From IMG/VR virus record IMGVR_UViG_2565956726_000008: a stretch of DNA of 64,000 bases; one strand, written 5' to 3'. Both the position numbers and the translations under genes were made by a program. Source of the DNA: a virus (taxonomy: Duplodnaviria; Heunggongvirae; Uroviricota; Caudoviricetes). Shown piece by piece: positions 2,395-46,781 of the stretch (positions are counted from its first letter, which is position 1; every line of letters begins with the position of its first letter). Under the pieces are notes generated by a model that was given only the letters and a program-made list of their open reading frames with translations, did no database searches and was not told the DNA's origin.

Positions 2395-3459
2395 ATGTAC
2401 TTTACAAAAGAAAACCTTGCCACCAACGCCCGTATGCAGGGCCATTGGAAAGAACTGTGGGCGCAACGCAATATCTTCAACGAGCAGCACAACGCCATGA
2501 TTGCAGCAAATCAGGCAAATATGACCGCTGAAATGTTGACCTGTAACGCCGTCGGCGGCTTCGCAAAAGAATTCTGGAAAGAAATCGATAACCAGATTAT
2601 CGAACTGAACACCGAAGAAATCGGTATTGAGATCGTAAACGACCTGATGGGTGTGCAAACCGTGCTGCCAGTCGGTAAAACGCTGAAAATGTACAACGTA
2701 TCCGGTGACATCAATGATGAAGTTGTGATGTCTATGGATGGTCAAGCGCCACACGGCTTTGATCACACCGAATACGATAGCGATGGCGACCCGATCCCGA
2801 TGTTCGCGGCTGGTTACGGTGTTAACTGGCGTCTCGCTCAGGGCTTGAATACTGTAGGCATCGACCTTGCCCTGGATAGTCAGCGCCTGAAACTGAAAAA
2901 ATTCAACAAAGCACGCGTCCAGTTCTACCTGAATGGTAACGATCGCATCGTGGTTGATGGTCATAAAGCTATGGGTATTAAAAACCACAAAAGCACCCAG
3001 CAGCTTAAACTAAAAACCGTCGCAAAAGTCGACCTGACTACTGCGGTTTTCGACAAGATCATTGACTTCTTCACCGTTGGTGAGTTCGGCAAGCTGGCTC
3101 GCGCCAACTTCGTAGCTAAATACGACGTCATGTGGGTATCGCCTGAGATCATGGCTAACCTGGCCCGTCCACACATCGTCAATGGTGCTGTAGTCGGTAG
3201 CGTGCTGAGCGTCATTATGCCGTTCGCTCCGGTTGGTGAGATTCGCCAGAGCTATGCATTGTCCGGCAACGAGTTCATTGCTTATCAGCGCAGCCGTAGC
3301 GTAATTACCCCGCTGGTTGGTATGACTACTGGTGTTGTACCGTTACCGCGCATGATGCCGACTGATAACTACAACTTCCGCATCATGTCCGCTGAGGGTC
3401 TGCAAATCACCCGTGACATGGAAGGTCGTTCAGGAGTGGTCTACGGCAGCAATACCTGA
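2395..3459 (+). CDS. major capsid protein (prophage A)
   Basis: 354-aa ORF with strong RBS, followed by a strong intrinsic terminator; gene order scaffold-decoration-capsid. Confidence 0.6.
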   Translation: MYFTKENLATNARMQGHWKELWAQRNIFNEQHNAMIAANQANMTAEMLTCNAVGGFAKEFWKEIDNQIIELNTEEIGIEIVNDLMGVQTVLPVGKTLKMYNVSGDINDEVVMSMDGQAPHGFDHTEYDSDGDPIPMFAAGYGVNWRLAQGLNTVGIDLALDSQRLKLKKFNKARVQFYLNGNDRIVVDGHKAMGIKNHKSTQQLKLKTVAKVDLTTAVFDKIIDFFTVGEFGKLARANFVAKYDVMWVSPEIMANLARPHIVNGAVVGSVLSVIMPFAPVGEIRQSYALSGNEFIAYQRSRSVITPLVGMTTGVVPLPRMMPTDNYNFRIMSAEGLQITRDMEGRSGVVYGSNT

Positions 3460-3478
3460 TTGATATGTTTCTGTAGCT

Positions 3479-3506
3479 CCCCGGCGCAATGCCGGGGATT
3501 TTTTTT
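3479..3506 (+). terminator. rho-independent terminator after capsid gene
   Basis: GC hairpin ccccggc-gcaat-gccgggg followed by a run of about 8 T. Confidence 0.6.
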
Positions 3507-3524
3507 GTATGTGGAGAAAACAAA

Positions 3525-3911
3525 ATGGTTACCACACAACAGGCGCGGGAATATCTCGAAAGCCAGGGGATTGAAATACCAGACGTGGTTTTATCTTTGC
3601 TGGTGGAGCAGGCAAATAGCGTTAATGAATGCCTTGATGCCAATTATCCGTCCTCCACTGCAACATTGATTCAGCTTTATCTCATTGGCCTGTTAGGACT
3701 CAGCCAGGCTGATAAATACGTTTCCTCGCAGACTGGTCCGAACGGTGCAAGCCAGTCTTACCGCTATGTCGATTTTAATAAGCGATGGAAGGCGGCCTAT
3801 TCGTTGCTTTACTCACTGGACAAACACCATTGTACAGCCGAACTAATTCCACCAGATCCAGAAAACACCGTGCACGCCGGGCTGTGGATTGGTAAGAGCA
3901 GGAGGATGTGA
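3525..3911 (+). CDS. head-tail connector / head completion protein (putative)
   Basis: 128-aa ORF from internal ATG of the track ORF; position after capsid gene. Confidence 0.4.
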   Translation: MVTTQQAREYLESQGIEIPDVVLSLLVEQANSVNECLDANYPSSTATLIQLYLIGLLGLSQADKYVSSQTGPNGASQSYRYVDFNKRWKAAYSLLYSLDKHHCTAELIPPDPENTVHAGLWIGKSRRM

Positions 3912-23202: not shown

Positions 23203-23324
23203 GCAGGTGAATGCAACGTCAAGCGATGGGCGTTGCGCTCCATATTGTCTTACTTCCTTTTTTGAATTACTGCATAGCACAATTGATTCGTACGACGCCG
23301 ACTTTGATGAGTCGGCTTTTTTTT
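23203..23324 (+). ncRNA. fnrS: FnrS small RNA
   Basis: Sequence GCAGGTGAATGCAACGTCAAGCGATGGG...GCCGACTTTGATGAGTCGGCTTTTTTTT matches FnrS as recalled; zntB-dbpA intergenic location; terminal hairpin plus U-run. Confidence 0.75.
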
Positions 23325-27604: not shown

Positions 27605-27886
27605 TTAATTTGAATACAATGCAATTCTCGAGGACTGAAGTTTCTCGCAATTAAAATTTATCAGTTTTACTTTCTGCTCTCTGGAAACGCCTGCTTCTTT
27701 TTTACCTGAGAGCATTTTTTCGCATTCTGATTTCGTTAGTTTAGATTTTGAATATCTTGTCCAGTTAGTAGGAGTGCCACCTTCCTTTTCAATAGTGGCG
27801 GTAATTTTATACATGAACACCTCCATTATTATTTCCAGTGGTTCGTTTATTCCATCTTTCGAGTGCTTCTTTTTCACTTCCACCAT
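27605..27886 (-). CDS. ydaC: Rac small protein YdaC-like
   Basis: ORF overlapping ralR 3' region; gene order as in Rac; true start may be an internal ATG. Confidence 0.5.
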   Translation of the reverse strand: MVEVKKKHSKDGINEPLEIIMEVFMYKITATIEKEGGTPTNWTRYSKSKLTKSECEKMLSGKKEAGVSREQKVKLINFNCEKLQSSRIALYSN

Positions 27887-33578: not shown

Positions 33579-33820
33579 TGCAAAATCTGAACCCTGCCGT
33601 CATGTTCATACGCCTCGGGCTGGCTACTTAACCCCTGACCACTGCCTGGTAACTCGAAGTATTGCCCTGCGTTCTGTGGGGCGGGGTGGGTTGGTAGGTA
33701 TATGATGTACTTTGTGTTCATTGATGTAAAGTACTTTAAGTACATTTTGTGTGTAAAAAAATGAGATGGGATAAAGTGAAGCACAAACCCGGAGGGGGGA
33801 GCTACCGGATTTATGCTGGT

Positions 33821-34240
33821 TTAAGAGGCTTTTTGTTTTTTCTTTCGTGCTAACTCTTCGTAAATTGCATTGTACTTCTGTTTTTTCTCCTCAAGAGTTT
33901 TTAAAAGTTCATCTGTCTCACTGTCAGGGAGCTCGTCCAGAAGGTCAATGATGATTTTTTGTCTTGGATTTAACTCCTGATAGAAACGTACCTGTCCACT
34001 TTCTTCTGTATCCTCTCCCAAAAGATAGGTTGGTGTTGTTCCAATGAGTGTTGCTAATTCCCTTAATTTCTCTCGGCGAGGAATTGTTTCGCCATTAAAC
34101 CATTTGCTAACCGCTTTTGGTGTTAATTTCATTCGACGGGCAATTTCTGCCTGCCTTCCATGTTGTTCATAACCAGCGTTTTCACAGGCTAGCGCAAGCC
34201 TACTGGCGAACTCTTTACGCGCTTTATCTTCATGAACCAT
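33821..34240 (-). CDS. racR: Rac prophage repressor RacR
   Basis: 139 aa with N-terminal HTH; divergent from ydaS. Confidence 0.8.
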   Translation of the reverse strand: MVHEDKARKEFASRLALACENAGYEQHGRQAEIARRMKLTPKAVSKWFNGETIPRREKLRELATLIGTTPTYLLGEDTEESGQVRFYQELNPRQKIIIDLLDELPDSETDELLKTLEEKKQKYNAIYEELARKKKQKAS

Positions 34241-34319
34241 AAGTTCAATGATATTCGCTCTTGAATGTACTGTCAGTTCTGTTATAGCATGTACTCAAAG
34301 TTCACATTGTGAGGGTGAT

Positions 34320-34574
34320 ATGAACCAGAAAACACTTGAAGATGTAATCAAAACTGTTCGCGTTTCTGTTGTGGCCGACGTTTGTGGTGTCAGCCAAAGA
34401 GCAATCTACAAATGGATGGATAACGGAAAATTGCCTCGCACAGAATATACCGGCGAAACAAATTACGCTGAAAAAATCGCTCATGCATCAAACGGATTAT
34501 TTTCTGCCGATGTAATTTTAACTATTGGCAGAAATAAAACTACTACGAAAAAGCTGATGGGAGTTGATTCATGA
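34320..34574 (+). CDS. ydaS: Cro-like HTH protein YdaS (toxic when derepressed)
   Basis: 84 aa from MNQKTLED with GAGGG RBS; HTH GVSQRAIYKW. Confidence 0.75.
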   Translation: MNQKTLEDVIKTVRVSVVADVCGVSQRAIYKWMDNGKLPRTEYTGETNYAEKIAHASNGLFSADVILTIGRNKTTTKKLMGVDS

Positions 34575-34993
34575 AAATCAAGCATGAGCACATCGAGTCA
34601 GTGTTGTTAGCCCTGGCAGCCGAAAAAGGGCAGGCATGGGTAGCCAATGCCATTACTGAAGAATATCTGCGCCAGGGGGGCGGCGAATTGCCCCTGGTAC
34701 CAGGCAAGGACTGGAATAATCAGCAGAACATCTATCACCGTTGGTTAAAAGGTGAAACGGAAGCGCAAAGGGAAAAAATTCAGAAACTGATCCCTGCAAT
34801 TCTGGCAATCCTTCCGCGCGAGCTGCGTCACCGACTCTGCATCTTCGATACCCTGGAACGCCGTGCATTACTGGCGGCGCAGGAAGCGTTAAGTACGGCA
34901 ATTGATGCGCATGATGATGCAGTCCAGGCCGTTTACCGGAAAGCGCATTTCAGCGGCGGCGGGTCTTCCGACGATTCTGTCATTGTTCATTAA
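34571..34993 (+). CDS. ydaT: YdaT toxin-like protein
   Basis: 140 aa; start overlaps ydaS stop. Confidence 0.75.
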   Translation: MKIKHEHIESVLLALAAEKGQAWVANAITEEYLRQGGGELPLVPGKDWNNQQNIYHRWLKGETEAQREKIQKLIPAILAILPRELRHRLCIFDTLERRALLAAQEALSTAIDAHDDAVQAVYRKAHFSGGGSSDDSVIVH

Positions 34994-35056
34994 GCAAAAG
35001 TTTCCATGCTGTTTGTGCTTATTCTAAGCAACCGGGCAGCATCATACGGGGCAATT

Positions 35057-35863
35057 ATGGCCGCATTACCATACATGCAACTGTACATAGCTGATTACCT
35101 GGCTGACACCATGCATTTGTCAGCAGAGGAGCATGGTGCGTATTTGTTGCTGATGTTCAATTACTGGCAAACAGGAAAGCCAATACCTAAAAACAGGCTG
35201 GCAAAAATTGCCCGTCTGACTAACGAGCGATGGGCTGATGTTGAACCATCCTTGCAGGAGTTTTTTTGCGATAACGGCGAGGAATGGGTGCATCTTCGGA
35301 TTGAGGAAGATCTGGCATCAGTCAGGGAAAAATTAACCAAAAAATCAGCCGCAGGAAAAGCATCTGTTCAGGCCAGAAGAAGCAGAAAGGAAGCAGATGT
35401 TCAAACAAAACAAGAGAGAAATTTAACAGGTGTTCAAACAGATGTTGAAGTGGTGTTTGAACATGATGTCAACACAAAGGCAACTAATAAAGATACAGAT
35501 AAAGATCTAAAAACAGATCCCCCCCTAAATCCCCCCCGGGGGAATCGAGGTGTCAAAAAGTTTGACCCTCTGGATATTGCTTTGCCGAACTGGATTTCTG
35601 TCTCGCTTTGGCGTGAGTGGGTTGAATTTCGCCAGGCATTGCGAAAACCGATTCGAACGGAGCAGGGCGCTAACGGGGCGATACGGGAGCTGGAAAAATT
35701 CCGCCAGCAGGGTTTTTCACCTGAGCAGGTGATTCGACACAGCATCGCCAATGAATACCAGGGCTTGTTCGCGCCGAAAGGTGTTCGACCTGAGACGTTA
35801 CTCCGACAGGTTAACACCGTCTCGTTACCGGATAGTGCGATCCCGCCAGGCTTCAGGGGGTAA
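35057..35863 (+). CDS. ydaU: replication initiation protein YdaU (DUF1376-type)
   Basis: Starts MAALPYMQLYIADYLADT; directly upstream of the DnaC-like gene. Confidence 0.7.
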   Translation: MAALPYMQLYIADYLADTMHLSAEEHGAYLLLMFNYWQTGKPIPKNRLAKIARLTNERWADVEPSLQEFFCDNGEEWVHLRIEEDLASVREKLTKKSAAGKASVQARRSRKEADVQTKQERNLTGVQTDVEVVFEHDVNTKATNKDTDKDLKTDPPLNPPRGNRGVKKFDPLDIALPNWISVSLWREWVEFRQALRKPIRTEQGANGAIRELEKFRQQGFSPEQVIRHSIANEYQGLFAPKGVRPETLLRQVNTVSLPDSAIPPGFRG

Positions 35864-35869
35864 CTGACC

Positions 35870-36616
35870 ATGAAAAATATTGCGACAGGCGATGTTCTTG
35901 AACGTATCCGCAGACTGGCCCCGTCACATGTAACCGCGCCATTCAAGACGGTAGCGGAGTGGCGCGAGTGGCAACTTTCCGAAGGCCAGAAACGTTGTGA
36001 GGAGATCAACCGTCAGAATCGTCAGTTGCGGGTGGAAAAAATTCTGAATCGCTCTGGCATCCAGCCATTGCACCGCAAATGCTCGTTTTCGAATTACCAG
36101 GTGCAGAACGAAGGGCAGCGATACGCGTTGAGTCAGGCGAAATCCATCGCTGATGAACTGATGACCGGGTGTACAAATTTTGCGTTCAGCGGAAAACCTG
36201 GTACCGGGAAGAACCACTTAGCGGCAGCTATCGGGAATCGCCTGCTGAAAGACGGTCAGACAGTGATTGTGGTTACCGTGGCTGATGTTATGAGTGCCCT
36301 GCACGCCAGCTATGACGATGGGCAGTCAGGCGAAAAATTTTTGCGGGAACTGTGCGAAGTGGATCTGCTGGTTCTTGATGAAATTGGCATTCAGCGCGAG
36401 ACGAAAAACGAGCAGGTGGTACTGCACCAGATTGTTGATCGCCGGACAGCGTCGATGCGCAGCGTGGGGATGCTGACAAACCTGAACTATGAGGCCATGA
36501 AAACATTGCTCGGCGAGCGGATTATGGATCGCATGACCATGAACGGCGGGCGATGGGTGAATTTTAACTGGGAGAGCTGGCGTCCGAATGTCGTCCAGCC
36601 AGGAATTGCGAAGTAA
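35870..36616 (+). CDS. ydaV: DnaC/IstB-like replicative helicase loader
   Basis: 248 aa; Walker [11 protein letters not shown] and Walker B LLVLDEIG. Confidence 0.8.
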
Positions 36617-36638
36617 TTTTTACCGGGAGAAAAATTTA

Positions 36639-37400
36639 ATGGAGACTGTTTTTGACGCACTGAAAGCAATGGGAAAAGCCACATCCATAGAACTTGCTGC
36701 GCGACTTGATATCAGTCGTGAAGAAGTGCTGAACGAACTATGGGAACTGAAAAAGGCTGGTTTTGTTGATAAAAGCGCGTACACCTGGCGTGTGGCTGAT
36801 AACAACGTTCAGCAGGAACAGCCAGCGCAGGCAGAACTGCCGGAAGAAATCACCACAGCAACAGTAGCGAAAATCTCAGAGTGCGATTTAACCGCGACGA
36901 TTGAACAACGAGGACCACAAACGGCTGATGAGCTGGCTACATTGTTTGGTACCACATCACGCAAAGTGGCTTCAACGCTGGCAATGGCAATCAGCAAAGG
37001 TCGTCTGATTCGCGTAAATCAGGGCGGTAAATTTCGTTACTGCATACCGGGCGATAATTTACCAGCAGAGCCGAAAGCAGCATCGGTAGCGGAAACTGAT
37101 GGTAAGGCCTTTCCTCAGACCGCAGGTGTTGCGTTACCAGTACAGGAGGCTGCAACACAGGAAGATATTAAAACAGAAACTGTGGCGGACATTGTGCAGT
37201 CGCTGCCATCGTTTACTGAAACGCGAGCGGATGACCTGGTTTTACCATCACTGCATATGGCAAACCGCGAACTGCGTCGGGCGAAAAATCATGTCCAGAA
37301 GTGGGAGCGTGTCTGCGCCGCGCTGCGTGAGTTGAACAAGCACAGGGATATTGTACGACAGATTACTGATTCTTCCCGCCATGTTGCATCGGAAAAGTGA
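36639..37400 (+). CDS. hypothetical protein with winged-helix-like motifs (YdaW region)
   Basis: 253 aa from METVFDALK. Confidence 0.45.
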
Positions 37401-37415
37401 TTGCCGGAGGCACCT

Positions 37416-37838
37416 ATGGCAAAAGTATTTACACCAGAAGAGCGAGAAAAAATTAAAGGACAGGTTGTTGAACTTGTACCTCTGAGCGGTCGCGAGACGT
37501 TACGGCAACTGGAAGCCAAGACAGGTGAGACAAGATATCTGATGAGTGTTCTCGCCAGTGAGCTGGTTGCCAGTGGCGATGTATACAACTCTGGTTACGG
37601 GTTATTCCCGTCTGAACAGGCGCGTAAAGACTGGCAAAACGCCCGCAAAAAACTATCGAGGGCAAAGGTGAAGAAACCTGCTGTAGTTGATCCGGACCTT
37701 ATCTGGTCATTACCAGACGGAGAAATACGCCGCTATGACAGGCGTCTGAATATAATCTGTCGCGAGTGCCGGAAGAGCGAAGTCATGCAGCGTGTACTGG
37801 CGTTCTATCAGGGTAATTTTCAGGATGTGCTGTTGTGA
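37416..37838 (+). CDS. hypothetical protein (nin-region)
   Basis: 140 aa from MAKVFTPEE; C-terminal CxxC. Confidence 0.4.
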   Translation: MAKVFTPEEREKIKGQVVELVPLSGRETLRQLEAKTGETRYLMSVLASELVASGDVYNSGYGLFPSEQARKDWQNARKKLSRAKVKKPAVVDPDLIWSLPDGEIRRYDRRLNIICRECRKSEVMQRVLAFYQGNFQDVLL

Positions 37839-37999
37839 GCCAAATTAACAATCAGGGAACTGCGTGAACTGAAAGAGAAATCATAATCCAAATCTGAATA
37901 ATTAAATTTAGCACTGTAAATAAAATTTAATCCTTAACCGGAGGGGGGGGCTGCACCCTCAAAATATTAGGAGGCGGCCCGAAAGGGCGGTAATGAAAA

Positions 38000-38503
38000 A
38001 TGACTGAATTAACCAAAAAGCAATTAATCGAAGAAGCTAAATTAAAAATAGCGATTGAGAAATGCCACCCCAATTCAGGGATGGCACGGGTAGAGGGCGA
38101 ATTATTCAAAATTGCTCTGGCATCGCTGGAAGCAGAGCCAGTTGGTGATTTTTATGAATACAAACCGGATGACTGGTATCAGCGTTCGGCTGGAGATAAA
38201 GCGCCAAAATGGACGCCACCCTATGCCGTTTTTCCAGCGCCCGTAGTGCCGGAAGAAATGGATTTGCTTACATGCCATCTCGATGGTGTAACTGAAACAT
38301 ATGCTGAGGGATGGAACGCTTGCCGCGCTGCCCTGCTTCAGGGCAAAGGGGAGCCCGGGAAACAAGTTCGCGAATTGACAATGCTGGTTAAACAATTGGT
38401 TAGTCAACTGAAGAAACCGAAACCGGGCTGCAAATTGCCGGATAAAGTGATGGACTACCTGGAGCGAAGCGGACTTATAAGCGTGGAGGATGTTTTACGA
38501 TGA
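38000..38503 (+). CDS. hypothetical protein (nin-region)
   Basis: 167-aa ORF with GGAGG RBS. Confidence 0.4.
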   Translation: MTELTKKQLIEEAKLKIAIEKCHPNSGMARVEGELFKIALASLEAEPVGDFYEYKPDDWYQRSAGDKAPKWTPPYAVFPAPVVPEEMDLLTCHLDGVTETYAEGWNACRAALLQGKGEPGKQVRELTMLVKQLVSQLKKPKPGCKLPDKVMDYLERSGLISVEDVLR

Positions 38504-38583
38504 CCTGGCCTGAAGCATTCACAACGGTAGGAATTGCGATGGCGGTGGCGCTGGTGGTGTATTCGATTTGCCGCTGGGGTTGA
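38500..38583 (+). CDS. 27-aa hydrophobic peptide overlapping upstream stop
   Basis: MTWPEAFTTVGIAMAVALVVYSICRWG; ATGA overlap; single TM helix. Confidence 0.3.
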   Translation: MTWPEAFTTVGIAMAVALVVYSICRWG

Positions 38584-38623
38584 TAATACTAAATAACCAG
38601 CCCTTATGGGGCTGGCTAATCAT

Positions 38624-39397
38624 TTAGAACTGTTCATTGCCATCGAGGTTAGGTAGCATAATTTTTTCAATCAAGGCGAGAGCCTTTTTGTCCCGGTCAG
38701 CGAAGTATTTCGGGGCATATTGCGGCAACCAAATATTGTTAAAATGTTCTTTGAAATCTGCTAAATATTCATTTGGGTACAGCCTTGCAGGGTATACGCG
38801 ACCATCGGGATATTCATGGTCATAGGTAGGGAATGTTTTGGGTTCTACGTTTCTATTATCTCTTAACCATTGTGAAAATACTCTTCCTTGTGAAATGTCA
38901 GGAACCATTTTTTCTGGGAGTGTGTACCCTGCTTGTTCAAGAGGTGCAACCAAGTTGAATGTCAGTTCATTAAGAATAGAAAAGTGCGTGTGAGGAATTC
39001 TACTACGATTAACCATGTACCGTTTTAAATGTACAGGCATTTCTGCTGTAGTTCTTTCCCCTGACATCCATTCACGAACCCATCTTGAAACCTGGACTGC
39101 AAATTTGGGCGATAGCCACTGCGCTAGATTAATAGCGATGTCAGGATGCACCCATGTCCCTTGGTTTTCAGGTCTTCCACCTTTAAATGATTGAATTAAC
39201 TCCGATATGGGAATTCCCATATCGCGTGATAATTCGTCAAAAAACTCTTGAGTAGTTTTGAGTCTAGTGTAATCAGAGAGCAGTTTGCCCGCAGTTCTAC
39301 ACATTGATGTGGCGTTTATGTAACCATCTTTGGCACGTAAATGTATTATTTCGCCGTCAATTTCACGAGAAATCAAAGATAATTGAAAGGATGTCAT
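38624..39397 (-). CDS. KilA-N domain protein (antirepressor-like)
   Basis: 257 aa; N-terminal KilA-N-like region (GEIIHLRAKDGYINATSMCR). Confidence 0.55.
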   Translation of the reverse strand: MTSFQLSLISREIDGEIIHLRAKDGYINATSMCRTAGKLLSDYTRLKTTQEFFDELSRDMGIPISELIQSFKGGRPENQGTWVHPDIAINLAQWLSPKFAVQVSRWVREWMSGERTTAEMPVHLKRYMVNRSRIPHTHFSILNELTFNLVAPLEQAGYTLPEKMVPDISQGRVFSQWLRDNRNVEPKTFPTYDHEYPDGRVYPARLYPNEYLADFKEHFNNIWLPQYAPKYFADRDKKALALIEKIMLPNLDGNEQF

Positions 39398-39919
39398 TGA
39401 AAATTCCTCAAGTTGGAGAGTTCTGGAACATTAAGGCGAGGTGGCAGTAATGCACCATCTGTAATCTTTTGATACTGACGTAATCGGGCCTGATGTGCAA
39501 CGCCTTGCAAGTATGTAACTCATTGAAAACGATCATTTTTATCTATTGACATCAAATGGCAAACTGTCATTGTGCGGCTATGGCAAGTGGCAAATGCTTA
39601 TAAATCATATGGATATAAATAGTACAGAAAGAGTTGTTTTCTCTAGGATATGAGTATACGCCCAATGCTGATTGGTTGAATTTTGTTCTTGTTTTAAAGG
39701 GTAAGAGTTTAAAGTGTTGGCAGTGATGTATTGGATAGTTAGAATTGCTGTGGGTGCTTGAGGCTATCTGCCTCGGGCATGAACACCAAAGGTAGATAGA
39801 GAAAAGCCCCAGTTAACATTACGCGTCCTGCAAGACGTTTAACATTAATCTGAGGCCATATCTATGCGACACATAGAGATTAGCCTCTTACGGACCGAAA
39901 GGTCAAGGAGAAGCAGGCT

Positions 39920-40045
39920 ATGAAGCAGCAAAAGGCGATGTTAATCGCCCTGATCGTCATCTGTTTAACCGTCATAGTGACGGCACTGGTAACGAGGAAA
40001 GACCTCTGCGAGGTACGAATCCGAACTGGCAGACGGAGGCTCTGA
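39920..40045 (+). pseudogene. hok/gef-family type I toxin remnant (frameshift and nonsense)
   Basis: Translation MKQQKAMLIALIVICLTVIVTALVTRKDLCEVRIRTG then out-of-frame RRRL-stop; 3' end still shows ...TAC TAA TCT GAG TAA as in hok ...YESE. Confidence 0.5.
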
Positions 40046-40127
40046 TTCGTAGACTACTAATCTGAGTAAAAGACCCAGCGGGGAAAGAACCACGCCGGGA
40101 CTAGTTAATAAGATATTTATAGCGTGG

Positions 40128-40469
40128 CTATTCTTTTTTTGCGGTATAGACTTTTTCGCCTGAGAAGTCTGGAGCTACCCAAAAGTTAATATTAAACTGA
40201 GCATCATCGCTTAGTTCAACACGGTGCCAGTATTGTGGTGGGCTTGTTGCAAAAGCGCCAGCATTAATGACTACTTTTATCTCCGGTTCAGTAGCATTCT
40301 CATCAGCAAAACCATAATATGTTACAGTACCTTCCATCACGCATAACTGTCCAAAAACACCTGCTGCTGTATTATGATGTGTTAATAACGCTGAAGGTAC
40401 GTTCTCTTTTGTGAAGAACGGAGTTGAGCGTTTGATTACCCAGTCTTTAGGAATTCTCTTGTGTGTCAT
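40128..40469 (-). CDS. cupin-fold protein (DUF1971-like), cargo gene
   Basis: 113 aa from MTHKRIPKDW; beta-rich composition; isolated minus-strand gene flanked by AT-rich DNA. Confidence 0.45.
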   Translation of the reverse strand: MTHKRIPKDWVIKRSTPFFTKENVPSALLTHHNTAAGVFGQLCVMEGTVTYYGFADENATEPEIKVVINAGAFATSPPQYWHRVELSDDAQFNINFWVAPDFSGEKVYTAKKE

Positions 40470-41336
40470 AACCACCTCCCATAAAACATGCATTATAAAT
40501 GCACCTTTTTGAGGGTTATGTCAAGCTGTTATGAAACACATAATTGATATGTTGATTAGAGGAGAAGATAGAATCAATATGGTTGTTTTTCGTATAACTA
40601 TTTGTTTTACTTTTAGTTTGTGCATTCTGTGTGTTAGGAATAACTTATTAAAGTTTAACTAAAAAATCTCGATATAGTCCGCATAGATTACTGTTACTGA
40701 ATCTTATTGTGTGCATTAGTTGTGTTCTGAAATTTCAATTTAATTACTTATGATATATTTTTAACGATAAATGTTTTCCGGGTGAAAGACAGTGGGGGAT
40801 GAGATAAGCAATATATCATTAATCTTGATTATTTCCAGGATGCCTTTACTGTGCATATAAATAAATCATATACGCATCAAATAATGTAAAGGCATCCTTT
40901 TAGATATATCTTATCAAATGTTAATGATTTGAGTGGGAAACATGATTCCAGAAACTAATCATGCGGCTACTTTATAAAAATAATGCCCATATAAAACAGC
41001 CAGCGAAAAGGATTACGGATAAAAAAGGAGCGAGATGTGCATAGTTGTTATTTTCCATGTTTAACCACCTTAAATAATTGATGATGACGGGATGTGCATC
41101 TGTAATGCTTTTGTTGAAATGTTATGATAAAAAAGAACTTTTTCATAACATTAAAATGTAATTTATCTAATCGTTTTTAATAATAAGTGTTGTATTTCTA
41201 TCCTTGTATCAGCTATTTGATATGTAGTGTTTGTTCATGTTATGTGGAGCTTTACACCATAGCCAGTTTATTTATACTTTATTCGTCAGCCTGAACAACT
41301 GGCATCTGCTGCACTGCGCCATCGAGAGATTGAGAA

Positions 41337-41936
41337 ATGGCGCATATACAACTGGTCAAACAAACCTCTTCTGGACTACTTCTCCCGGCGACGCCGGAGA
41401 GTTGCGATTTTTTGCATCAAATCAAAATAGGCGAGTGGATACACGCAGACTTTAAGCGTGTGCGTAACTACGCATTCCACAAGCGTTTTTTCAAACTCCT
41501 GCAACTGGGATTCGATTACTGGACTCCGGTCGGTGGGGCGATCACGCCTCGCGAACGAAAGCTGGTTTCAGGATTCGTTGATTACCTATGTGAATCAGTA
41601 GGCCGGGAACATACGCCAGCTCTGAGCGAAGCCGCAGAGCAATATCTGAATACAGTTGCGACACGCAGAACCCGGGATACGGCATTGCTAAAGTCGTTTG
41701 AGGCTTTCCGCGAGTGGGTAACCATTCAGGCCGGATTTTACACCGAGCATCTTTATCCTGATGGTAGCCATGGGCGTCGGGCGAAATCCATCGCTTTTGC
41801 GAATATGGACGAAACCGAGTTTCAGCAGGTTTATAAATCTGTTCTGAATGTGCTGTGGAACTGGATTCTGTTCCGTAAATTTTCCTCTCCGGAACAAGTC
41901 GAAAATGTGACCGCGCAGCTGCTGGAGTTTGCGTAA
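41337..41936 (+). CDS. DUF1367-type lambdoid late-region protein
   Basis: 199 aa; position upstream of Q as ydfU-like genes in other lambdoid prophages. Confidence 0.45.
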   Translation: MAHIQLVKQTSSGLLLPATPESCDFLHQIKIGEWIHADFKRVRNYAFHKRFFKLLQLGFDYWTPVGGAITPRERKLVSGFVDYLCESVGREHTPALSEAAEQYLNTVATRRTRDTALLKSFEAFREWVTIQAGFYTEHLYPDGSHGRRAKSIAFANMDETEFQQVYKSVLNVLWNWILFRKFSSPEQVENVTAQLLEFA

Positions 41937-42226
41937 TGGTGGATTTACGTAAAGCGGCGCGGGGGCAGATGTGCACCGTCAGAATTCCTGGCTACTGCAA
42001 TCACGATCCGGAAACGTCTGTGCTGGCGCATTACCGACTGGCGGGAACGTGCGGAACAGCGACAAAACCACACGATATGCAGGCGGCGATTGCCTGTAGC
42101 TCATGCCACGATCTAATCGACGGGCGGGTAAAAACCAGCGATTACACCAAAGAAGAATTACGCCTGATGCATGCAGAAGGTGTTTTTCGCACACAAGAAA
42201 TCTGGAGAAAGGAGGGATATTTGTGA
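41936..42226 (+). CDS. small Cys-rich zinc-binding protein (DUF1364-like)
   Basis: 96 aa with CxxxxxxC and CxxC pairs; ATG overlaps previous stop. Confidence 0.45.
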   Translation: MVDLRKAARGQMCTVRIPGYCNHDPETSVLAHYRLAGTCGTATKPHDMQAAIACSSCHDLIDGRVKTSDYTKEELRLMHAEGVFRTQEIWRKEGYL

Positions 42227-42765
42227 TTTACCCAACGAATACAGGAAAAAGCGGAGAACACCTTCGTCTCGCCACGCTGGAAAGTGTCTGGATTCAGGGC
42301 AAACTGCGTATGTGGGGGCGCTGGTCGTATATTGGCGGTGGCAGGTCAGGAAATATGTTCAATCAGTTGTTGGCATCCAAAAAATTGACGAAAACAGCCA
42401 TCAATGAAGCCCTGCGCAGAATGAAAAAAGCGGGAATAGAGAAAGCTGAGCTGGAAGCGTTTTTGCGAGAGATGATCAACGGCAAGCAAAAGAGCTGGCT
42501 GGCGCATTGTACTGATGCAGAGGCGTTATGTATTGATCGAGTCATAAGTGAGGTGCTGGCAGAGCATCCTGGATTGATTAGTGTCCTCCGGCAACGGTAT
42601 GAAGGACGGGGGATGACTAAGCGCAAAATGGCTGAATTGCTAAATGATGCACATCCTGAGTGGTGTTTTAGCACATGCGAAAAGCGAATTGCTAATTGGT
42701 TGGCTGTTGCTGAGTATGCCCTATATATTCCCATGCGAGAATCATTTGCTCAAAAAATAGCTTGA
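42223..42765 (+). CDS. late-gene antiterminator Q-like protein
   Basis: 180 aa from GTG overlapping upstream stop (GTGA); followed by promoter-plus-terminator arrangement typical of P_R'-tR'. Confidence 0.55.
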   Translation: MIYPTNTGKSGEHLRLATLESVWIQGKLRMWGRWSYIGGGRSGNMFNQLLASKKLTKTAINEALRRMKKAGIEKAELEAFLREMINGKQKSWLAHCTDAEALCIDRVISEVLAEHPGLISVLRQRYEGRGMTKRKMAELLNDAHPEWCFSTCEKRIANWLAVAEYALYIPMRESFAQKIA

Positions 42766-42850
42766 TTTTTTACGCATAAACTGCTTCAATTCCGGTATGC
42801 TTCGCAAAGCTGTATCGCGAGGCGAACCAAGCGCATGAACTTTACCAGAA
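42766..42850 (+). promoter_or_regulatory. candidate late promoter P_R' / qut region
   Basis: Inferred from position between Q stop and tR'-like terminator; hexamers not confidently assigned. Confidence 0.35.
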
Positions 42851-42877
42851 CCCGCCATTGAGCGGGTTTTGTTGTTT
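42851..42877 (+). terminator. tR'-like intrinsic terminator
   Basis: Hairpin cccgc-cattga-gcggg followed by TTTTGTTGTTT. Confidence 0.5.
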
Positions 42878-42986
42878 CTGGTACTGGTGAACCTGATGTT
42901 TCATTTCTGGAGCGCGATTCCTGGCGGAATACCTAGAATCGAGACATTCTGGTAAAATTGTTTTCAGTACAGGATGTGGAGGTGAG

Positions 42987-43556
42987 ATGAGAGAACTACC
43001 TAAAGATTATTTTTTAGGAGTAGATGATGAGCTCGTCGATTATCTTGAAAAACAAGGGGAAGAGACGATACGAGAGATTCATCTTTCTAACAAAACCAAT
43101 GTTGAGAATGGATACAAACTTCTGAACATTCAGATTGTTGGAATTGGTTCATCTTTTTTATTGCTGACACAGAAAACTAATTTCGATTTTCTCACCGCCG
43201 GAATTACCACATTTACATTACTATGGACATGGTGCGCCATTTACTTGGTATGTACTGGTTTATCTGTGAAGGTTAGGGGCCTGATCAATGCCCCTCCTGA
43301 TCATATATATCATGAAAAATATAAGGATATGGAGCCCTCGAGCTTTAAAATATTCGCTGATGCAGGATATTTAGGACCTGATAAGTTATTGCCGCTTATA
43401 CGAAGGTATCGCCTTGTTGACTTGAGTGATACAGCAAGAGAGTTACTGTTGGAAAATGAGAAAATCCGCACGAGTCTCGATAAAGCAAGGATGTATACCA
43501 TCCTTGCTCCGGTAGCGGCGATGTTTATCTCGGCTGTTTTTTTATATGTTCAATGA
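42987..43556 (+). CDS. membrane protein of unknown function (moron between Q and holin)
   Basis: 189 aa; GGAGG RBS; two central hydrophobic helices and a C-terminal TM. Confidence 0.5.
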   Translation: MRELPKDYFLGVDDELVDYLEKQGEETIREIHLSNKTNVENGYKLLNIQIVGIGSSFLLLTQKTNFDFLTAGITTFTLLWTWCAIYLVCTGLSVKVRGLINAPPDHIYHEKYKDMEPSSFKIFADAGYLGPDKLLPLIRRYRLVDLSDTARELLLENEKIRTSLDKARMYTILAPVAAMFISAVFLYVQ

Positions 43557-43686
43557 CTGAGTCGGCAGAATCTCCAACAAAAACACGACGTGTAGCAAAG
43601 TCTGTAGTACTTTGTGTTGGAGTTGGTTTTGGTGCCACGGGTTGCTGAGGTTTATTTTCACCTTGTGGTTTGTTTTTTTCAGACAT
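43525..43686 (-). CDS. small Pro/Gln-rich protein convergent with the membrane-protein gene
   Basis: 53 aa from MSEKNKPQGENKPQQPVAPKP; AGAGGA RBS 5 nt upstream; overlaps the 3' end of 42987..43556. Confidence 0.35.
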   Translation of the reverse strand: MSEKNKPQGENKPQQPVAPKPTPTQSTTDFATRRVFVGDSADSVIEHIKKQPR

Positions 43687-43903
43687 AAAAATCCTCTTTG
43701 TTTGAATTGTTACTTTTGGCGATTTAACGATATCAAACACGAGTATATACCGCCAGAAGCTTAATCTGGCACTCCATCTGGCCCCGGCATGTCCCGGGGC
43801 TTTTTCGTTGTTAGGCTCTGGAAACATCCTCGACTTCTTGTTAGCAAGCCTGAGAGCCTGAATCTTACACTTAGCACCATCCGAACTCTCGGAGGTGAGG
43901 CTT

Positions 43904-44245
43904 ATGAAAATGCACAATGCCCCTCATTCCTGGCCTGACTTACTGGAACTCTTACAAAGTTGGTGGCGTGGAGATACGCCGCTGGGTGCAGTGGTTATGT
44001 CAATTATTATGGCTGGTTTGCGCATTGCCTATTTTGGCGGTGGCGGCGGCTGGAAACGAAAAACGCTTGAGATTCTGCTTTGTGGTGCTCTGACGCTGAC
44101 CTTTGCATCCGCGCTTGAGTATGTCGGATGGCCTAAATCACTTTCTGTTGCCATTGGTGGTGGGGTGGGGCTGATTGGTGTTGATGCTATTCGTGGTGCG
44201 GCAATGAGGGTCATCGGTAACAAGTTCGGTGCCCATAAGGAGTAA
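43904..44245 (+). CDS. holin with dual-start motif (Met-Lys-Met)
   Basis: 113 aa from MKMHNAP; TM segments; immediately upstream of endolysin. Confidence 0.75.
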   Translation: MKMHNAPHSWPDLLELLQSWWRGDTPLGAVVMSIIMAGLRIAYFGGGGGWKRKTLEILLCGALTLTFASALEYVGWPKSLSVAIGGGVGLIGVDAIRGAAMRVIGNKFGAHKE

Positions 44246-44248
44246 TTA

Positions 44249-44725
44249 ATGCAGACACTTAATTCCCAGCGTAAAGCTTTCCTTGATATGGTGGCATGGT
44301 CAGAAGGAACAGATAACGGACGGCAGAAAACCAGAAATCACGGTTATGATGTTATTGTCGGTGGCGAACTGTTCACTGATTACTCCGATCACCCCCGCAA
44401 ACTTGTCACGCTAAATCCGAAACTCAAATCAACAGCCGCTGGACGTTACCAGCTTCTTTCACGCTGGTGGGATGCCTACCGCAAGCAACTTGGCCTGAAA
44501 GATTTTTCTCCAGAAAGTCAGGATGCTGTAGCGCTGCAGCAGATTAAAGAGCGTGGCGCTTTGCCGATGATTGATCGCGGTGATATCCGTCAGGCTATCG
44601 ACCGTTGCAGCAATATATGGGCTTCACTGCCGGGCGCTGGTTATGGTCAGTTCGAGCATAAGGCTGACAGTCTGATTGCAAAATTCAAAGAAGCTGGCGG
44701 AACGGTCAGAGAGATTGAGGTATGA
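44249..44725 (+). CDS. R: endolysin, lambda R-type lytic transglycosylase
   Basis: 158 aa, near-identical to lambda R as recalled ([32 protein letters not shown]). Confidence 0.9.
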
Positions 44726-45186
44726 GCAGAGTAACCGCGATTATCTCCGCTCTGGTTATCTGCATCGTCGTCTGCCTGTCATGGGGTGTTAATCATTACC
44801 GTGATAACGCCATCGCCTACAAAGAACAGCGCGACAAAAATGCCAGAGAACTGAAGCTGGCGAACGCGGCAATTACTGACATGCAGATGCGTCAGCGTGA
44901 TGTTGCTGCGCTCGATGCAAAATACACGAAGGAGTTAGCTGATGCGAAAGCTGAAAATGATGCTCTGCGTGATGATGTTGCCGCTGGTCGTCGTCGGTTG
45001 CACATCAAAGCAGTCTGTCAGTCAGTGCGTGAAGCCACCACCGCCTCCGGCGTGGATAATGCAGCCTCCCCCCGACTGGCAGACACCGCTGAACGGGATT
45101 ATTTCACCCTCCGGGAACGACTGGTAATGATGCAGGCCCAACTTGAAGGTGCTCAGCAATACATAACCGAGCAGTGTTTAAAGTAA
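44722..45186 (+). CDS. Rz: i-spanin Rz
   Basis: 154 aa; N-terminal TM and coiled coil; overlaps R stop. Confidence 0.9.
44942..45127 (+). CDS. Rz1: o-spanin Rz1 (embedded in Rz, +1 frame)
   Basis: 61-aa lipoprotein [20 protein letters not shown] with PPPPP tract, entirely inside Rz. Confidence 0.85.
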
Positions 45187-45323
45187 AATCTTAACTACAA
45201 TATGATTCATTTTGATGATTGTTTCATAAGGAACAGTGAAGTAAGATCTAAGAGGAGTTAAATTTTATACAGTATAATCATAATATTGCAGCAAGGTGGT
45301 TATAATTGAAAGAATATTTAGAT

Positions 45324-46781
45324 ATGAATACATCTCATGTAAGAGTTGTTACTCATATGTGTGGGTTCCTGGTTTGGCTCTATAGTCTTTCAATGTTGCC
45401 ACCAATGGTTGTAGCATTGTTTTATAAAGAAAAAAGCCTGTTCGTTTTCTTTATAACTTTCGTTATATTTTTTTGCATTGGTGGCGGAGCGTGGTATACA
45501 ACTAAGAAATCTGGCATTCAATTACGTACCCGTGATGGGTTTATTATAATTGTAATGTTTTGGATTTTGTTTTCTGTTATTAGTGCATTCCCTTTATGGA
45601 TTGACTCAGAACTTAATTTAACGTTCATTGATGCTCTGTTTGAAGGGGTTTCTGGAATAACAACAACAGGAGCAACTGTAATTGATGATGTTAGTTCATT
45701 ACCTCGGGCATATTTGTACTATCGGTCACAGTTAAATTTTATAGGTGGTTTAGGAGTTATTGTTCTGGCGGTTGCTGTATTGCCATTATTGGGTATTGGT
45801 GGTGCAAAGCTTTATCAGTCAGAAATGCCGGGGCCATTTAAGGATGACAAACTCACTCCCCGCCTGGCCGATACGTCACGGACACTGTGGATAACTTATT
45901 CTTTATTAGGTATTGCTTGTATTGTCTGTTATAGACTTGCAGGAATGCCTTTGTTTGATGCTATTTGTCACGGGATTTCCACAGTTTCGCTTGGTGGTTT
46001 CTCAACTCATAGCGAGAGTATCGGATATTTTAATAACTATTTGGTTGAGCTGGTGGCTGGTTCTTTTTCCCTGCTATCGGCTTTCAACTTCACTCTTTGG
46101 TATATTGTTATTAGCAGGAAAACGATAAAACCTTTAATCAGAGATATTGAACTTCGTTTCTTTCTGTTAATAGCCTTAGGGGTGATCATTGTTACCTCTT
46201 TCCAGGTCTGGCATATAGGTATGTATGACTTGCATGGAAGTTTTATTCATTCGTTTTTTCTTGCCAGCTCCATGCTCACTGATAATGGTTTAGCTACGCA
46301 GGATTATGCAAGTTGGCCCACGCACACGATAGTGTTTTTGCTGTTGTCAAGTTTCTTTGGGGGATGTATAGGTTCAACTTGTGGTGGAATTAAGTCACTT
46401 CGATTTCTTATACTTTTCAAACAAAGCAAACACGAGATAAATCAGCTTTCTCATCCCAGAGCGTTGTTGAGTGTAAATGTAGGAGGGAAGATAGTTACAG
46501 ATCGTGTAATGAGGTCTGTATGGAGTTTCTTTTTTCTTTATACTCTCTTCACGGTGTTTTTTATACTGGTGTTAAATGGTATGGGATATGATTTTCTTAC
46601 ATCATTTGCAACAGTGGCTGCATGTATTAATAATATGGGATTAGGTTTTGGGGCTACTGCATCGTCATTCGGAGTGCTTAATGACATTGCAAAATGTTTA
46701 ATGTGCATAGCTATGATTCTTGGTCGCCTTGAAATTTATCCTGTTATTATATTGTTTTCAGGTTTTTTTTGGCGCTCCTAA
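45324..46781 (+). CDS. trkG: potassium uptake protein TrkG
   Basis: 485 aa from MNTSHVRVV; multi-TM; AT-rich gene as in Rac. Confidence 0.9.
   Translation: MNTSHVRVVTHMCGFLVWLYSLSMLPPMVVALFYKEKSLFVFFITFVIFFCIGGGAWYTTKKSGIQLRTRDGFIIIVMFWILFSVISAFPLWIDSELNLTFIDALFEGVSGITTTGATVIDDVSSLPRAYLYYRSQLNFIGGLGVIVLAVAVLPLLGIGGAKLYQSEMPGPFKDDKLTPRLADTSRTLWITYSLLGIACIVCYRLAGMPLFDAICHGISTVSLGGFSTHSESIGYFNNYLVELVAGSFSLLSAFNFTLWYIVISRKTIKPLIRDIELRFFLLIALGVIIVTSFQVWHIGMYDLHGSFIHSFFLASSMLTDNGLATQDYASWPTHTIVFLLLSSFFGGCIGSTCGGIKSLRFLILFKQSKHEINQLSHPRALLSVNVGGKIVTDRVMRSVWSFFFLYTLFTVFFILVLNGMGYDFLTSFATVAACINNMGLGFGATASSFGVLNDIAKCLMCIAMILGRLEIYPVIILFSGFFWRS

What the first reader, a model, noticed from the sequence alone, without database searches (positions are those of the whole stretch)
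39800..40100. Disrupted hok/gef-family toxin locus in the prophage late region
The ORF starting near 39920 encodes the canonical Hok N-terminus (MKQQKAMLIALIVICLTVIVTALVTRKDLCEVRIRTG) but then goes out of frame and stops. The 3' end still reads ...TAC TAA TCT GAG TAA, like hok ...YESE with a GAA to TAA change, so there is at least one indel plus a nonsense lesion. This points to selection against an active toxin here; residual mok/sok elements may persist.
Basis: partly seen in the sequence, partly recalled or inferred. Interest (0 to 1): 0.4.

Follow-up and report, generated by a model that had tools for sequence, protein, structure and literature searches.

The report
Decayed hok/sok toxin locus in prophage
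This is a broken copy of a well-known small membrane-toxin/antisense-RNA "addiction" module (hok/sok) in a Rac-type E. coli prophage: the toxin gene is truncated and its regulatory 3' end is missing, while the antitoxin half is intact in sequence. It is an ordinary gene relic, already annotated in about a hundred complete E. coli genomes.

Summary
ORF 39920..40045 (+) encodes 41 aa whose first 37 residues equal HokD, followed by RRRL-stop. Alignment with intact prophage hokD/hokW loci shows these lesions:
- a 1-nt deletion at 40029/40030;
- a scrambled 6-nt stretch at 40040..40045 (net -2), which creates an in-frame TGA;
- a second in-frame stop (GAA>TAA at 40058).

The fold-back (fbi) element and the terminator are replaced, across a hairpin at 40071..40102, by a convergent DUF1971 gene.

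The 5' half is intact in sequence and nearly identical to intact loci:
- hok promoter;
- tac 5' hairpin;
- 19-codon mok ORF whose TGA overlaps the hok ATG;
- sok promoter and antisense hairpin.

Rfam sok scores 101.5 bits over its full length.

The same allele with the same junction is in 104 of 5,426 complete E. coli genomes, 3 phage records and 7 IMG/VR contigs, with no intermediates. It is therefore real and inherited, not a sequencing error.

The locus lies upstream of the Q-like antiterminator, so it is in the early, nin-like region, not the late region. "Selection against the toxin" is plausible but not shown.

Verdict: ordinary relic of a known type I toxin-antitoxin system, low interest.

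The parts
39717..39745 (+). hok mRNA promoter-like site, TTGGCA-17 nt-TAGAAT. The -10 hexamer is shared with intact loci. The -35 hexamer lies in the flank specific to this prophage.
   Evidence: 10 of 12 matches; alignment; upstream flanks
39752..39922 (+). hok mRNA 5' leader (tac 5' hairpin, mok ribosome-binding site, Sok target, hok SD AAGGAG at 39906..39911). It matches the full length of the Rfam sok model.
   Evidence: RF01794, 101.5 bits against a gathering score of 59, model 1-157/157, E=2.3e-23
39864..39923 (+). mok-like leader ORF of 19 codons (MRHIEISLLRTERSRRSRL). Its TGA overlaps the hok ATG (ATGA), an arrangement typical of translational coupling. It is identical in the intact hokD-type loci.
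39802..39870 (-). Sok-like antisense RNA: a 5' single-stranded tail, then a long hairpin followed by CUUUUCU. The ends are inferred from the sokW annotation of phage 933W.
   Evidence: -26 kcal/mol, z=-4.2; sokW misc_RNA; 1 difference from intact hokD-type loci
39877..39906 (-). Presumed sok promoter: TTGACC (39906..39901), 18 nt, TAATCT (39882..39877). It is identical to the intact hokD-type loci.
   Evidence: read. The strict scan does not list it because the -10 is weak.
39920..40045 (+). Truncated hok ORF, 41 aa. Residues 1-37 equal HokD, followed by RRRL and TGA.
   Evidence: annotated by PGAP as WP_001445775.1 Hok/Gef family protein
40029..40030 (+). Site of the 1-nt deletion (intact GGY CAG; here GG^CAG). 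It shifts the frame after Gly37.
40040..40045 (+). Scrambled stretch: CTCTGA in place of TCGCTGTC (two substitutions, net -2). It creates the premature TGA and restores the original frame downstream.
40046..40069 (+). Untranslated remnant of the last hok codons in the original frame: TTC GTA GAC TAC TAA TCT GAG TAA (hokW-like FVDY-E-SE). It carries the GAA>TAA change at 40058..40060.
40071..40102 (.). Imperfect hairpin AGACCCAGCGGGG..CCACGCCGGGACT. Its 5' arm resembles the hok post-stop hairpin and its 3' arm the DUF1971 terminator seen in strain ET896. It is the probable recombination junction, and on the minus strand a plausible terminator for DUF1971 (followed by UCUUUUA). The hok fbi element and terminator, which should follow, are absent.
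40128..40493 (-). Convergent DUF1971/TehB-like gene (PGAP start at 40469). With the roughly 850 nt of 30% G+C DNA that follows (40494..41336) it forms a low-G+C insert replacing the hok 3' end.

Best explanation
[quoted passage not shown] It sits in the nin-like early region of a Rac-type lambdoid prophage.

In an intact locus, a stable hok mRNA is kept silent by pairing of its 5' end (tac) with a 3' element (fbi). Slow 3' trimming activates it. Translation of the mok leader then drives translation of hok, a roughly 50-aa inner-membrane toxin whose C-terminus is periplasmic. The unstable antisense Sok RNA blocks this and triggers RNase III cleavage.

Here the right half of that machine is destroyed:
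- The toxin ORF stops after residue 41 and has lost the last 14 residues of the periplasmic part, including the conserved Tyr codon near the end.
- The 3' UTR with fbi and the terminator has been swapped for a convergent DUF1971 gene. This probably happened by recombination inside a hairpin that both sequences share (GAGACCCGNCGGGG).

The left half is intact in sequence: hok promoter, tac hairpin, mok ORF, sok promoter and Sok hairpin. The locus can therefore probably still make Sok RNA and an unregulated, fbi-less hok transcript, but no active toxin. It cannot work as a killing or addiction module.

Shown: the anatomy, the lesions, the loss of end-pairing in predicted folds, and the inheritance as one fixed allele.
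Inferred: loss of toxicity, continued transcription, and the order and cause of the lesions.

The very uneven divergence (1.4% in the left part, 36% in the right) is best explained by an old decayed right end whose left part was later replaced by homologous recombination with an intact hok locus. IMG/VR contig L014 shows such an exchange.
For: - Family assignment: Pfam HOK_GEF E=3.2e-16; Rfam sok at full length, 101.5 bits.
- Lesions against five intact loci: A1; A3. Translations.
- End pairing: predicted minimum-energy folds of intact loci pair nt 1-14 with the fbi element (CCTCAAYGCACCCGC) about 380 nt downstream. The window transcript has no such partner and folds its 5' end into the local tac hairpin.
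- Left half intact: promoter, mok ORF, Sok hairpin, identity to intact loci.
- Fixed allele: 104 of 5,426 genomes, all at 99% identity or more, no intermediates. It also occurs in 3 phage records and 7 IMG/VR contigs, one with a further 92-nt deletion that removes the mok and hok starts and the sok promoter.
- Divergence step: 4 differences in 276 columns against 28 in 78. L014 carries the same 3' lesions with a different leader variant and a different upstream flank.
- Literature on the C-terminus:
  - For R1 hok, 18 of the 20 codons that one substitution can turn into a stop were recovered as loss-of-function premature stops.
  - In the same study M46I and Y48N, C-terminal tags and read-through extensions also abolish toxicity (PMC9841398).
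  - The periplasmic C-terminal part of Gef/HokC was proposed as the toxic domain (PMC8509063, citing Poulsen 1991).
  - A disulfide involving a C-terminal Cys, produced by editing of a Tyr codon, is essential for HokB toxicity and similar editing is observed in hokC/D/E mRNAs (bioRxiv 10.1101/2025.08.07.668861).
- Degenerate hok CDSs are a recognised minority (5.1% short, 2.6% with internal stops) and hok is enriched in prophages (same preprint).
Against: - Toxicity of the 41-aa product was not tested. It keeps the whole transmembrane helix and the RKDLCEVRIRTG motif. In R1 Hok, alanine substitutions of single conserved residues (C31A, E41A, E49A) did not abolish toxicity on overexpression (bioRxiv 10.1101/2025.08.07.668861). 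HokC work argues that the N-terminal domain also matters (PMC8509063).
- PGAP annotates it as a protein, not a pseudogene.
- No expression data exist for either strand.
- The recombination history is inferred from short alignments. Similarity of the ET896 spacer to hok is not significant.
Confidence: 0.85

Rival explanations
1. The 41-aa peptide is still a working toxin, perhaps attenuated, or a membrane-active small protein. On this reading the locus is a functional short-form hok/sok system rather than a relic.
For: The transmembrane segment and the conserved Cys motif are retained and are 100% identical to HokD. The Pfam score is strong. PGAP calls it a protein. The exact peptide is on at least 1000 contigs. 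The full 5' regulatory half is conserved.
Against: - There are two further in-frame stops and scrambled sequence downstream, and the fbi element and terminator are lost. That is the pattern of decay, not of a remodelled gene.
- One descendant has deleted the start codon altogether (L016).
- In R1 Hok, premature stops and C-terminal changes abolish toxicity (PMC9841398).
- All copies are one clonal allele, so their number says nothing about selection.
Confidence: 0.08
2. The locus is kept as an orphan antitoxin. Sok RNA from the toxin-less locus neutralises hokD-type mRNAs of co-resident or incoming prophages or plasmids (anti-addiction). Alternatively, the unregulated hok leader transcript titrates Sok from other loci.
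For: The sok promoter is identical to that of intact hokD-type loci. The Sok-complementary stretch differs at 1 of 69 positions, and the target of the Sok 5' tail at 0 of 21. The Sok hairpin folds well. Genomes carrying the allele have 3-5 hok-like places each. The anti-addiction idea for chromosomal toxin-antitoxin systems is raised in the literature (bioRxiv 10.1101/2025.08.07.668861, discussion).
Against: Conservation of the left half needs no selection, because the copies are clonal and the left half may be a recent recombinational import. L016 has lost the sok promoter. There are 8 differences from the hokW type, concentrated in the recognition tail. No expression data exist.
Confidence: 0.1
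3. The frameshift is a sequencing or assembly artefact and the real gene is intact.
For: The first lesion is a single-base deletion.
Against: The identical sequence is found in 104 independently sequenced complete genomes, 3 phage records and 7 metagenomic viral contigs. The lesions are multiple and include substitutions and loss of the 3' UTR.
Confidence: 0.01

Closest known systems
hokW/mokW/sokW of Stx2 phage 933W (annotated in AF125520) and the Hok/Gef loci of O157 prophages
   Same: A prophage-borne hok/sok locus with the same leader architecture. Identity is 91.8% over 39740..40083. The remnant C-terminal codons here (FVDY-E-SE) are of the hokW type.
   Different: hokW is intact (51 aa...QTEVAVFVDYESEK) and keeps the fbi element. 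Its mok is fused in frame to hok (70 aa), whereas here mok is 19 codons ending in ATGA. hokW lies near the right end of the phage genome, not in the nin region. There are 8 differences in the Sok-complementary stretch.
Intact prophage 'hokD' loci with leader (E. coli PS_131_S11, KKa014, EM10-18-28)
   Same: Identity is 97% over the leader and codons 1-36. The mok ORF, the sok promoter and the target of the Sok 5' tail are identical. These loci are also in the nin-like region of lambdoid prophages, upstream of a DUF968 gene.
   Different: Those loci have a 51-aa ORF, a 3' UTR with fbi (GCACCCGC) and a GC-rich terminator. Their predicted folds close the 5' and 3' ends. Here all of that is lost.
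hokD (relF) of the Qin prophage, E. coli K-12
   Same: Identical first 37 residues, with only 1 synonymous nucleotide difference in codons 1-36.
   Different: K-12 hokD has the opposite defect. Its ORF and 3' UTR are intact, but the leader, mok and sok are missing because relBE lies directly upstream.
hok/sok (parB) of plasmid R1, the reference system
   Same: Same parts list and logic: promoter, tac, mok, sokT, Sok, hok (Rfam and Pfam matches; mechanism as summarised in PMC9841398).
   Different: R1 mok is 70 codons and overlaps all of hok. The R1 locus is functional in post-segregational killing. The window locus lacks fbi and a full-length toxin.

Membership tests
[quoted passage not shown] | ORF with the Hok/Gef domain (PF01848) | tested here: met
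   E=3.2e-16, 59.1 bits against a cut-off of 22, but only profile positions 1-34 of 42 are covered
[quoted passage not shown] | Full-length toxin of about 50 aa with the periplasmic C-terminal part | tested here: not met
   41 aa, with the last 14 residues of HokD replaced by RRRL; two further in-frame stops downstream
[quoted passage not shown] | hok leader and antisense sok RNA gene | tested here: met
   RF01794, 101.5 bits, full length; Sok hairpin, z=-4.2; promoter identical to intact loci. Expression could not be tested.
[quoted passage not shown] | mok leader ORF translationally coupled to hok | tested here: met
   19-codon ORF at 39864..39923 whose TGA overlaps the hok ATG; the same sequence is in intact hokD-type loci. 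Coupling itself is inferred.
[quoted passage not shown] | tac-fbi pairing of the mRNA 5' and 3' ends, and a 3' terminator | tested here: not met
   tac is present; the fbi sequence and terminator are absent; the 5' end folds locally in the window but pairs with fbi in intact loci
[quoted passage not shown] | Toxicity of the peptide and post-segregational killing | not testable with these tools
   Requires expression and plasmid-loss or rifampicin assays
Rac-type lambdoid prophage (context) | Integration at ttcA with intR/xisR, ralR-RalA, recET, kilR, sieB, ydaT/ydaV and trkG | tested here: met
   annotation of the collinear strain 7/2 region, same coordinates; RalA at 27630..27808; 99.4% identity over 35606..46130

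The most novel reading that the evidence does not exclude
The toxin-less locus is maintained as an orphan Sok antitoxin, or as a Sok sponge through its fbi-less leader transcript. In that role it would modulate the intact hokD-type loci of other lambdoid prophages in the same cell. This would give the Rac-type prophage or its host immunity to hok-mediated addiction or exclusion.
Probability: 0.08. Interest if true: 0.45.

Novelty: already known. Interest (0 to 1): 0.12.

Why it matters
It matters little. Hok loci inactivated by mutation or rearrangement have been known in E. coli since the chromosomal hok genes were described, and recent surveys set aside several percent of hok CDSs as degenerate.

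Three modest points are useful:
- RefSeq/PGAP lists this 41-aa product (WP_001445775.1) as an ordinary Hok/Gef family protein, although it is truncated and its mRNA lacks the fbi element. Counts of 'functional' hok genes that use a 40-aa cut-off would include it.
- The locus is the mirror image of K-12 hokD (leader kept, tail lost). That makes it a natural construct for asking what a fold-back-less hok leader and an orphan Sok do.
- It shows a hok locus acting as a recombination joint between lambdoid phage modules.

Tried and rejected
1. Sequencing error. Rejected: the allele is identical in 104 genomes, phage records and viral contigs.
2. The divergent 3' piece comes from another intact hok homologue. 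Distant blastn of 40020/40026..40131 against E. coli genomes, PLSDB plasmids and phages found nothing closer than hokW, at about 83% over 54-64 nt. No donor was found.
3. Intermediate alleles that would order the lesions:
   - Exact-pattern scans of one genome per species for the full lesion and for the -1 deletion alone both gave 0 hits.
   - No E. coli match falls between 90% and 99% identity.
4. A decayed hok in the hok-less DUF1971 context (ET896, L007). There was no Rfam sok hit. Local alignment to the window locus is not above shuffles (131 of 500), and to an intact locus only marginally so (6 of 500). I left this as unproven.
5. Recoding. A +1 shift at the deletion site would give ...TGQTEALIRRLLI*, which is unlike any Hok C-terminus (read). 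Rejected.
6. My first mok translation was off by one base. It is corrected.
7. The strict terminator scan found none in 39500..40300 or 40100..41400. The hairpins I describe are weaker than its thresholds.
8. The supplementary table of PMC9841398, which lists which stop codons were recovered, is not held.

Full report
**Observation.** ORF 39920..40045 on the + strand encodes MKQQKAMLIALIVICLTVIVTALVTRKDLCEVRIRTGRRRL, 41 aa. It matches Pfam HOK_GEF at E=3.2e-16, but only over profile positions 1-34 of 42. Translating on in the same frame gives ...RRRL*FVDY*SE*.

**What it is.** The Rfam search of 39000..41000 gives a full-length match to the sok family (RF01794): 39752..39922, + strand, 101.5 bits against a gathering score of 59, E=2.3e-23. 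This is the only sok hit in the 64-kb window.

Megablast against 5,426 complete E. coli genomes finds hok-like DNA in 4,718 of them. The closest intact relatives are prophage loci that PGAP names hokD or Hok/Gef family protein. Among phages, the closest is the annotated hokW/mokW/sokW locus of 933W and other Stx phages.

**Lesions.** I aligned the window with four intact loci that have a leader, plus K-12 hokD (A1). From the transcription start to codon 36 the window is almost identical to intact loci. After that it is not:
- One base is missing between 40029 and 40030 (intact GGY CAG; here GG^CAG).
- TCGCTGTC is replaced by CTCTGA at 40040..40045. This removes two more bases, creates the TGA that ends the ORF, and puts the downstream text back in frame.
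- GAA has become TAA at 40058..40060.
- There is one codon fewer before the last TAA.
- The GC-rich hairpin after the stop is degraded.

Homology to hok loci ends at about 40083-40097.

Intact loci continue for about 60 nt more. That stretch contains ...CCTCAAYGCACCCGC..., followed in the hokD-type loci by a GC-rich terminator. In the predicted minimum-energy folds of two intact hokD-type mRNAs (EM10-18-28 and PS_131_S11), nt 1-14 (GCGGGTGCTTGAGG) pair with exactly this stretch about 380 nt away. This is the classical tac-fbi end pairing that keeps full-length hok mRNA silent (mechanism as summarised in PMC9841398). The window has no such partner, and its 5' end folds into the local tac hairpin instead.

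**What replaced the 3' end.**
- A convergent gene at 40128..40493 (-) encodes a DUF1971/TehB-like protein (Pfam E=3.5e-26). It is followed by about 850 nt of 30% G+C DNA.
- In strain ET896 the same DUF1971 module occurs without hok. There it ends in a terminator hairpin, AGACCCGGCAGGG..CCCCGACGGGTCT plus a T-run on the minus strand.
- The window hairpin at 40071..40102 has a hok-like 5' arm and an ET896-like 3' arm.
- I therefore infer that the junction formed inside this shared GAGACCCGNCGGGG hairpin. On the minus strand the hairpin is followed by UCUUUUA and may now terminate DUF1971.

**What survives.** These parts are intact in sequence:
- The hok promoter, TTGGCA-17-TAGAAT, at 39717..39745.
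- The leader.
- A 19-codon mok-like ORF at 39864..39923 whose TGA overlaps the hok ATG.
- The hok SD.
- On the minus strand, TTGACC-18-TAATCT at 39906..39877.
- A Sok-like RNA at about 39870 to 39802, which folds into a long hairpin followed by CUUUUCU (-26 kcal/mol, z=-4.2). Its ends are placed by analogy with the sokW annotation.

Against intact hokD-type loci, the sok promoter is identical, the Sok-complementary stretch differs at 1 of 69 positions, and the target of the Sok 5' tail is identical. Against the hokW type there are 8 differences.

**Distribution.** The exact allele with the DUF1971 junction is in 104 of 5,426 complete E. coli genomes, all at 99% identity or more. No match falls between 90% and 99%. 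It is also present elsewhere:
- Three phage records, vB_EcoS-666R9, -673R7 and -613R10.
- Seven IMG/VR contigs, all with the same lesions.
  - One of them (L016) has a further 92-nt deletion equivalent to 39844..39935. It removes the sok promoter and the mok and hok starts.
  - Another (L014) has the identical right part but a different leader variant and a different upstream flank.

Species-representative genomes hold neither the full lesion nor the -1 deletion alone. The exact 41-aa sequence is on at least 1000 contigs and is named Hok/Gef family protein. PGAP lists it as WP_001445775.1, not as a pseudogene. It is therefore not a sequencing error. It is one inherited allele.

**Context.** The window is collinear with E. 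coli 7/2: ycjG...ttcA, then a Rac-type prophage carrying intR, xisR, ralR, recT, recE, kilR, sieB, ydaT, ydaV and more (99.4% identity over 35606..46130).

The hok relic lies between a KilA-N gene (38624..39397, -) and DUF1971. It is upstream of DUF1367, DUF1364, the Q-like DUF1133 gene (42223..42765), holin, lysozyme, Rz and trkG. That is the early-right, nin-like region, not the late region.

**Uneven divergence.** Against the closest intact locus there are 4 differences in 276 columns (39752..40027) but 28 in 78 columns (40028..40097). I found no divergent donor for the right piece in E. coli genomes, plasmids or phages.

My inference is that the right piece is an old, decayed end that travels with the DUF1971 module, and that the left piece was renewed by homologous recombination with an intact hok locus. 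L014 shows that such exchanges of the left part occur. A single messy repair event at the junction is the alternative. I cannot tell the two apart.

**Function.** The locus most likely no longer works as a toxin or addiction module. Several published results point to the missing C-terminal part as necessary for toxicity:
- In R1 hok, 18 of the 20 codons that a single substitution can turn into a stop were recovered as loss-of-function premature stops. M46I, Y48N, C-terminal tags and read-through extensions also abolish toxicity (PMC9841398).
- The periplasmic C-terminal part of Gef/HokC was proposed as the toxic domain, because replacing it with PhoA gave a non-toxic protein (PMC8509063, citing earlier work).
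- A disulfide involving a C-terminal Cys, made by A-to-I editing of a Tyr codon, is essential for HokB. [quoted passage not shown] That Tyr codon (TAC at 40055..40057) lies beyond the stop here, and the following G has become T.

Evidence on the other side is limited. Single alanine substitutions of conserved residues did not abolish R1 Hok toxicity on overexpression (same preprint). The N-terminal domain also contributes in HokC (PMC8509063). Residual activity of the 41-aa peptide is therefore unlikely but not excluded. Whether Sok and the leader are still transcribed, and whether that matters, is untested.

**Cause.** Removing fbi should give an mRNA that is constitutively open to translation and to Sok (the mechanism in PMC9841398). 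Inactivation of the toxin after the 3' swap could therefore have been selected. Equally, the toxin may have died first and the rest decayed neutrally.

**Novelty and score.** Decayed hok loci are well known:
- Chromosomal loci of K-12 are regarded as inactive.
- 5.1% of unique hok CDSs are short and 2.6% have internal stops in a recent survey.
- hok is enriched in prophages (all three from bioRxiv 10.1101/2025.08.07.668861).

This allele is already in RefSeq. Interest is low, about 0.12. The only mildly interesting reading is an orphan-Sok or Sok-sponge role, which I put at about 8%.

Noticed in passing
window 39752..40027 versus 40028..40097: There is a sharp step in divergence from the closest intact hok loci: 1.4% on the left and 36% on the right. 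No donor for the right piece turned up in E. coli genomes, plasmids or phages. This suggests a recombination breakpoint inside the hok ORF, or a single messy repair event.
   Followed up: partly
L016 (IMGVR_UViG_3300007747_000074) 2402; equivalent to window 39844..39935: A descendant of the same allele carries a further 92-nt deletion between short TTAA repeats. It removes the sok promoter, mok, and the hok SD and start, so decay is continuing.
   Followed up: partly
L014 (IMGVR_UViG_2718218453_000005) 2963..3900: This contig has the same 3' lesion set and the DUF1971 module, but another leader variant. Its upstream flank is also different: a 382-aa ORF instead of KilA-N. The left boundary of hok homology (window 39740) is thus a mosaic joint between phage modules.
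   Followed up: partly
L007 (E. coli ET896) 2790..3001: This locus has the L014-type upstream flank and the DUF1971 module, with about 150 nt in between instead of the hok relic. Similarity of that spacer to hok is at most marginal (6 of 500 shuffles score as well). It could be an even older remnant or unrelated DNA.
   Followed up: partly
L003/L009 1625..1837 (O157 prophage and 933W) versus window 39864..39923: In the hokW type, mok is in frame with hok, giving a 70-aa N-terminally extended Hok. In the hokD type here it is a separate 19-codon ORF ending in ATGA. A 2-nt insertion and a 1-nt deletion in the leader make the difference.
   Followed up: no
window 27630..27808 (+): RalA sRNA, the antitoxin of the RalR type I system (Rfam 225 bits). 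ralR is annotated next to it in the collinear genome. This is a second, apparently intact type I toxin-antitoxin system in the same prophage.
   Followed up: no
window 23203..23320 (+): FnrS sRNA (Rfam 134.8 bits) in the chromosomal part of the window. This is an expected core-genome feature.
   Followed up: no
window 40494..41336: An intergenic stretch of about 850 nt at roughly 30% G+C lies between DUF1971 and DUF1367. It has no annotated gene in RefSeq; one phage record calls a 43-aa ORF at 40531..40662. Together with DUF1971 it looks like a foreign low-G+C insert (a moron).
   Followed up: no
window 33696..35606: Against strain 7/2 the window is 96.8% identical over 33696..34991 and has no match over about 34992..35605. 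Elsewhere identity is 99.4%. The immunity and replication-initiator segment of this Rac-type prophage is a different mosaic variant.
   Followed up: no
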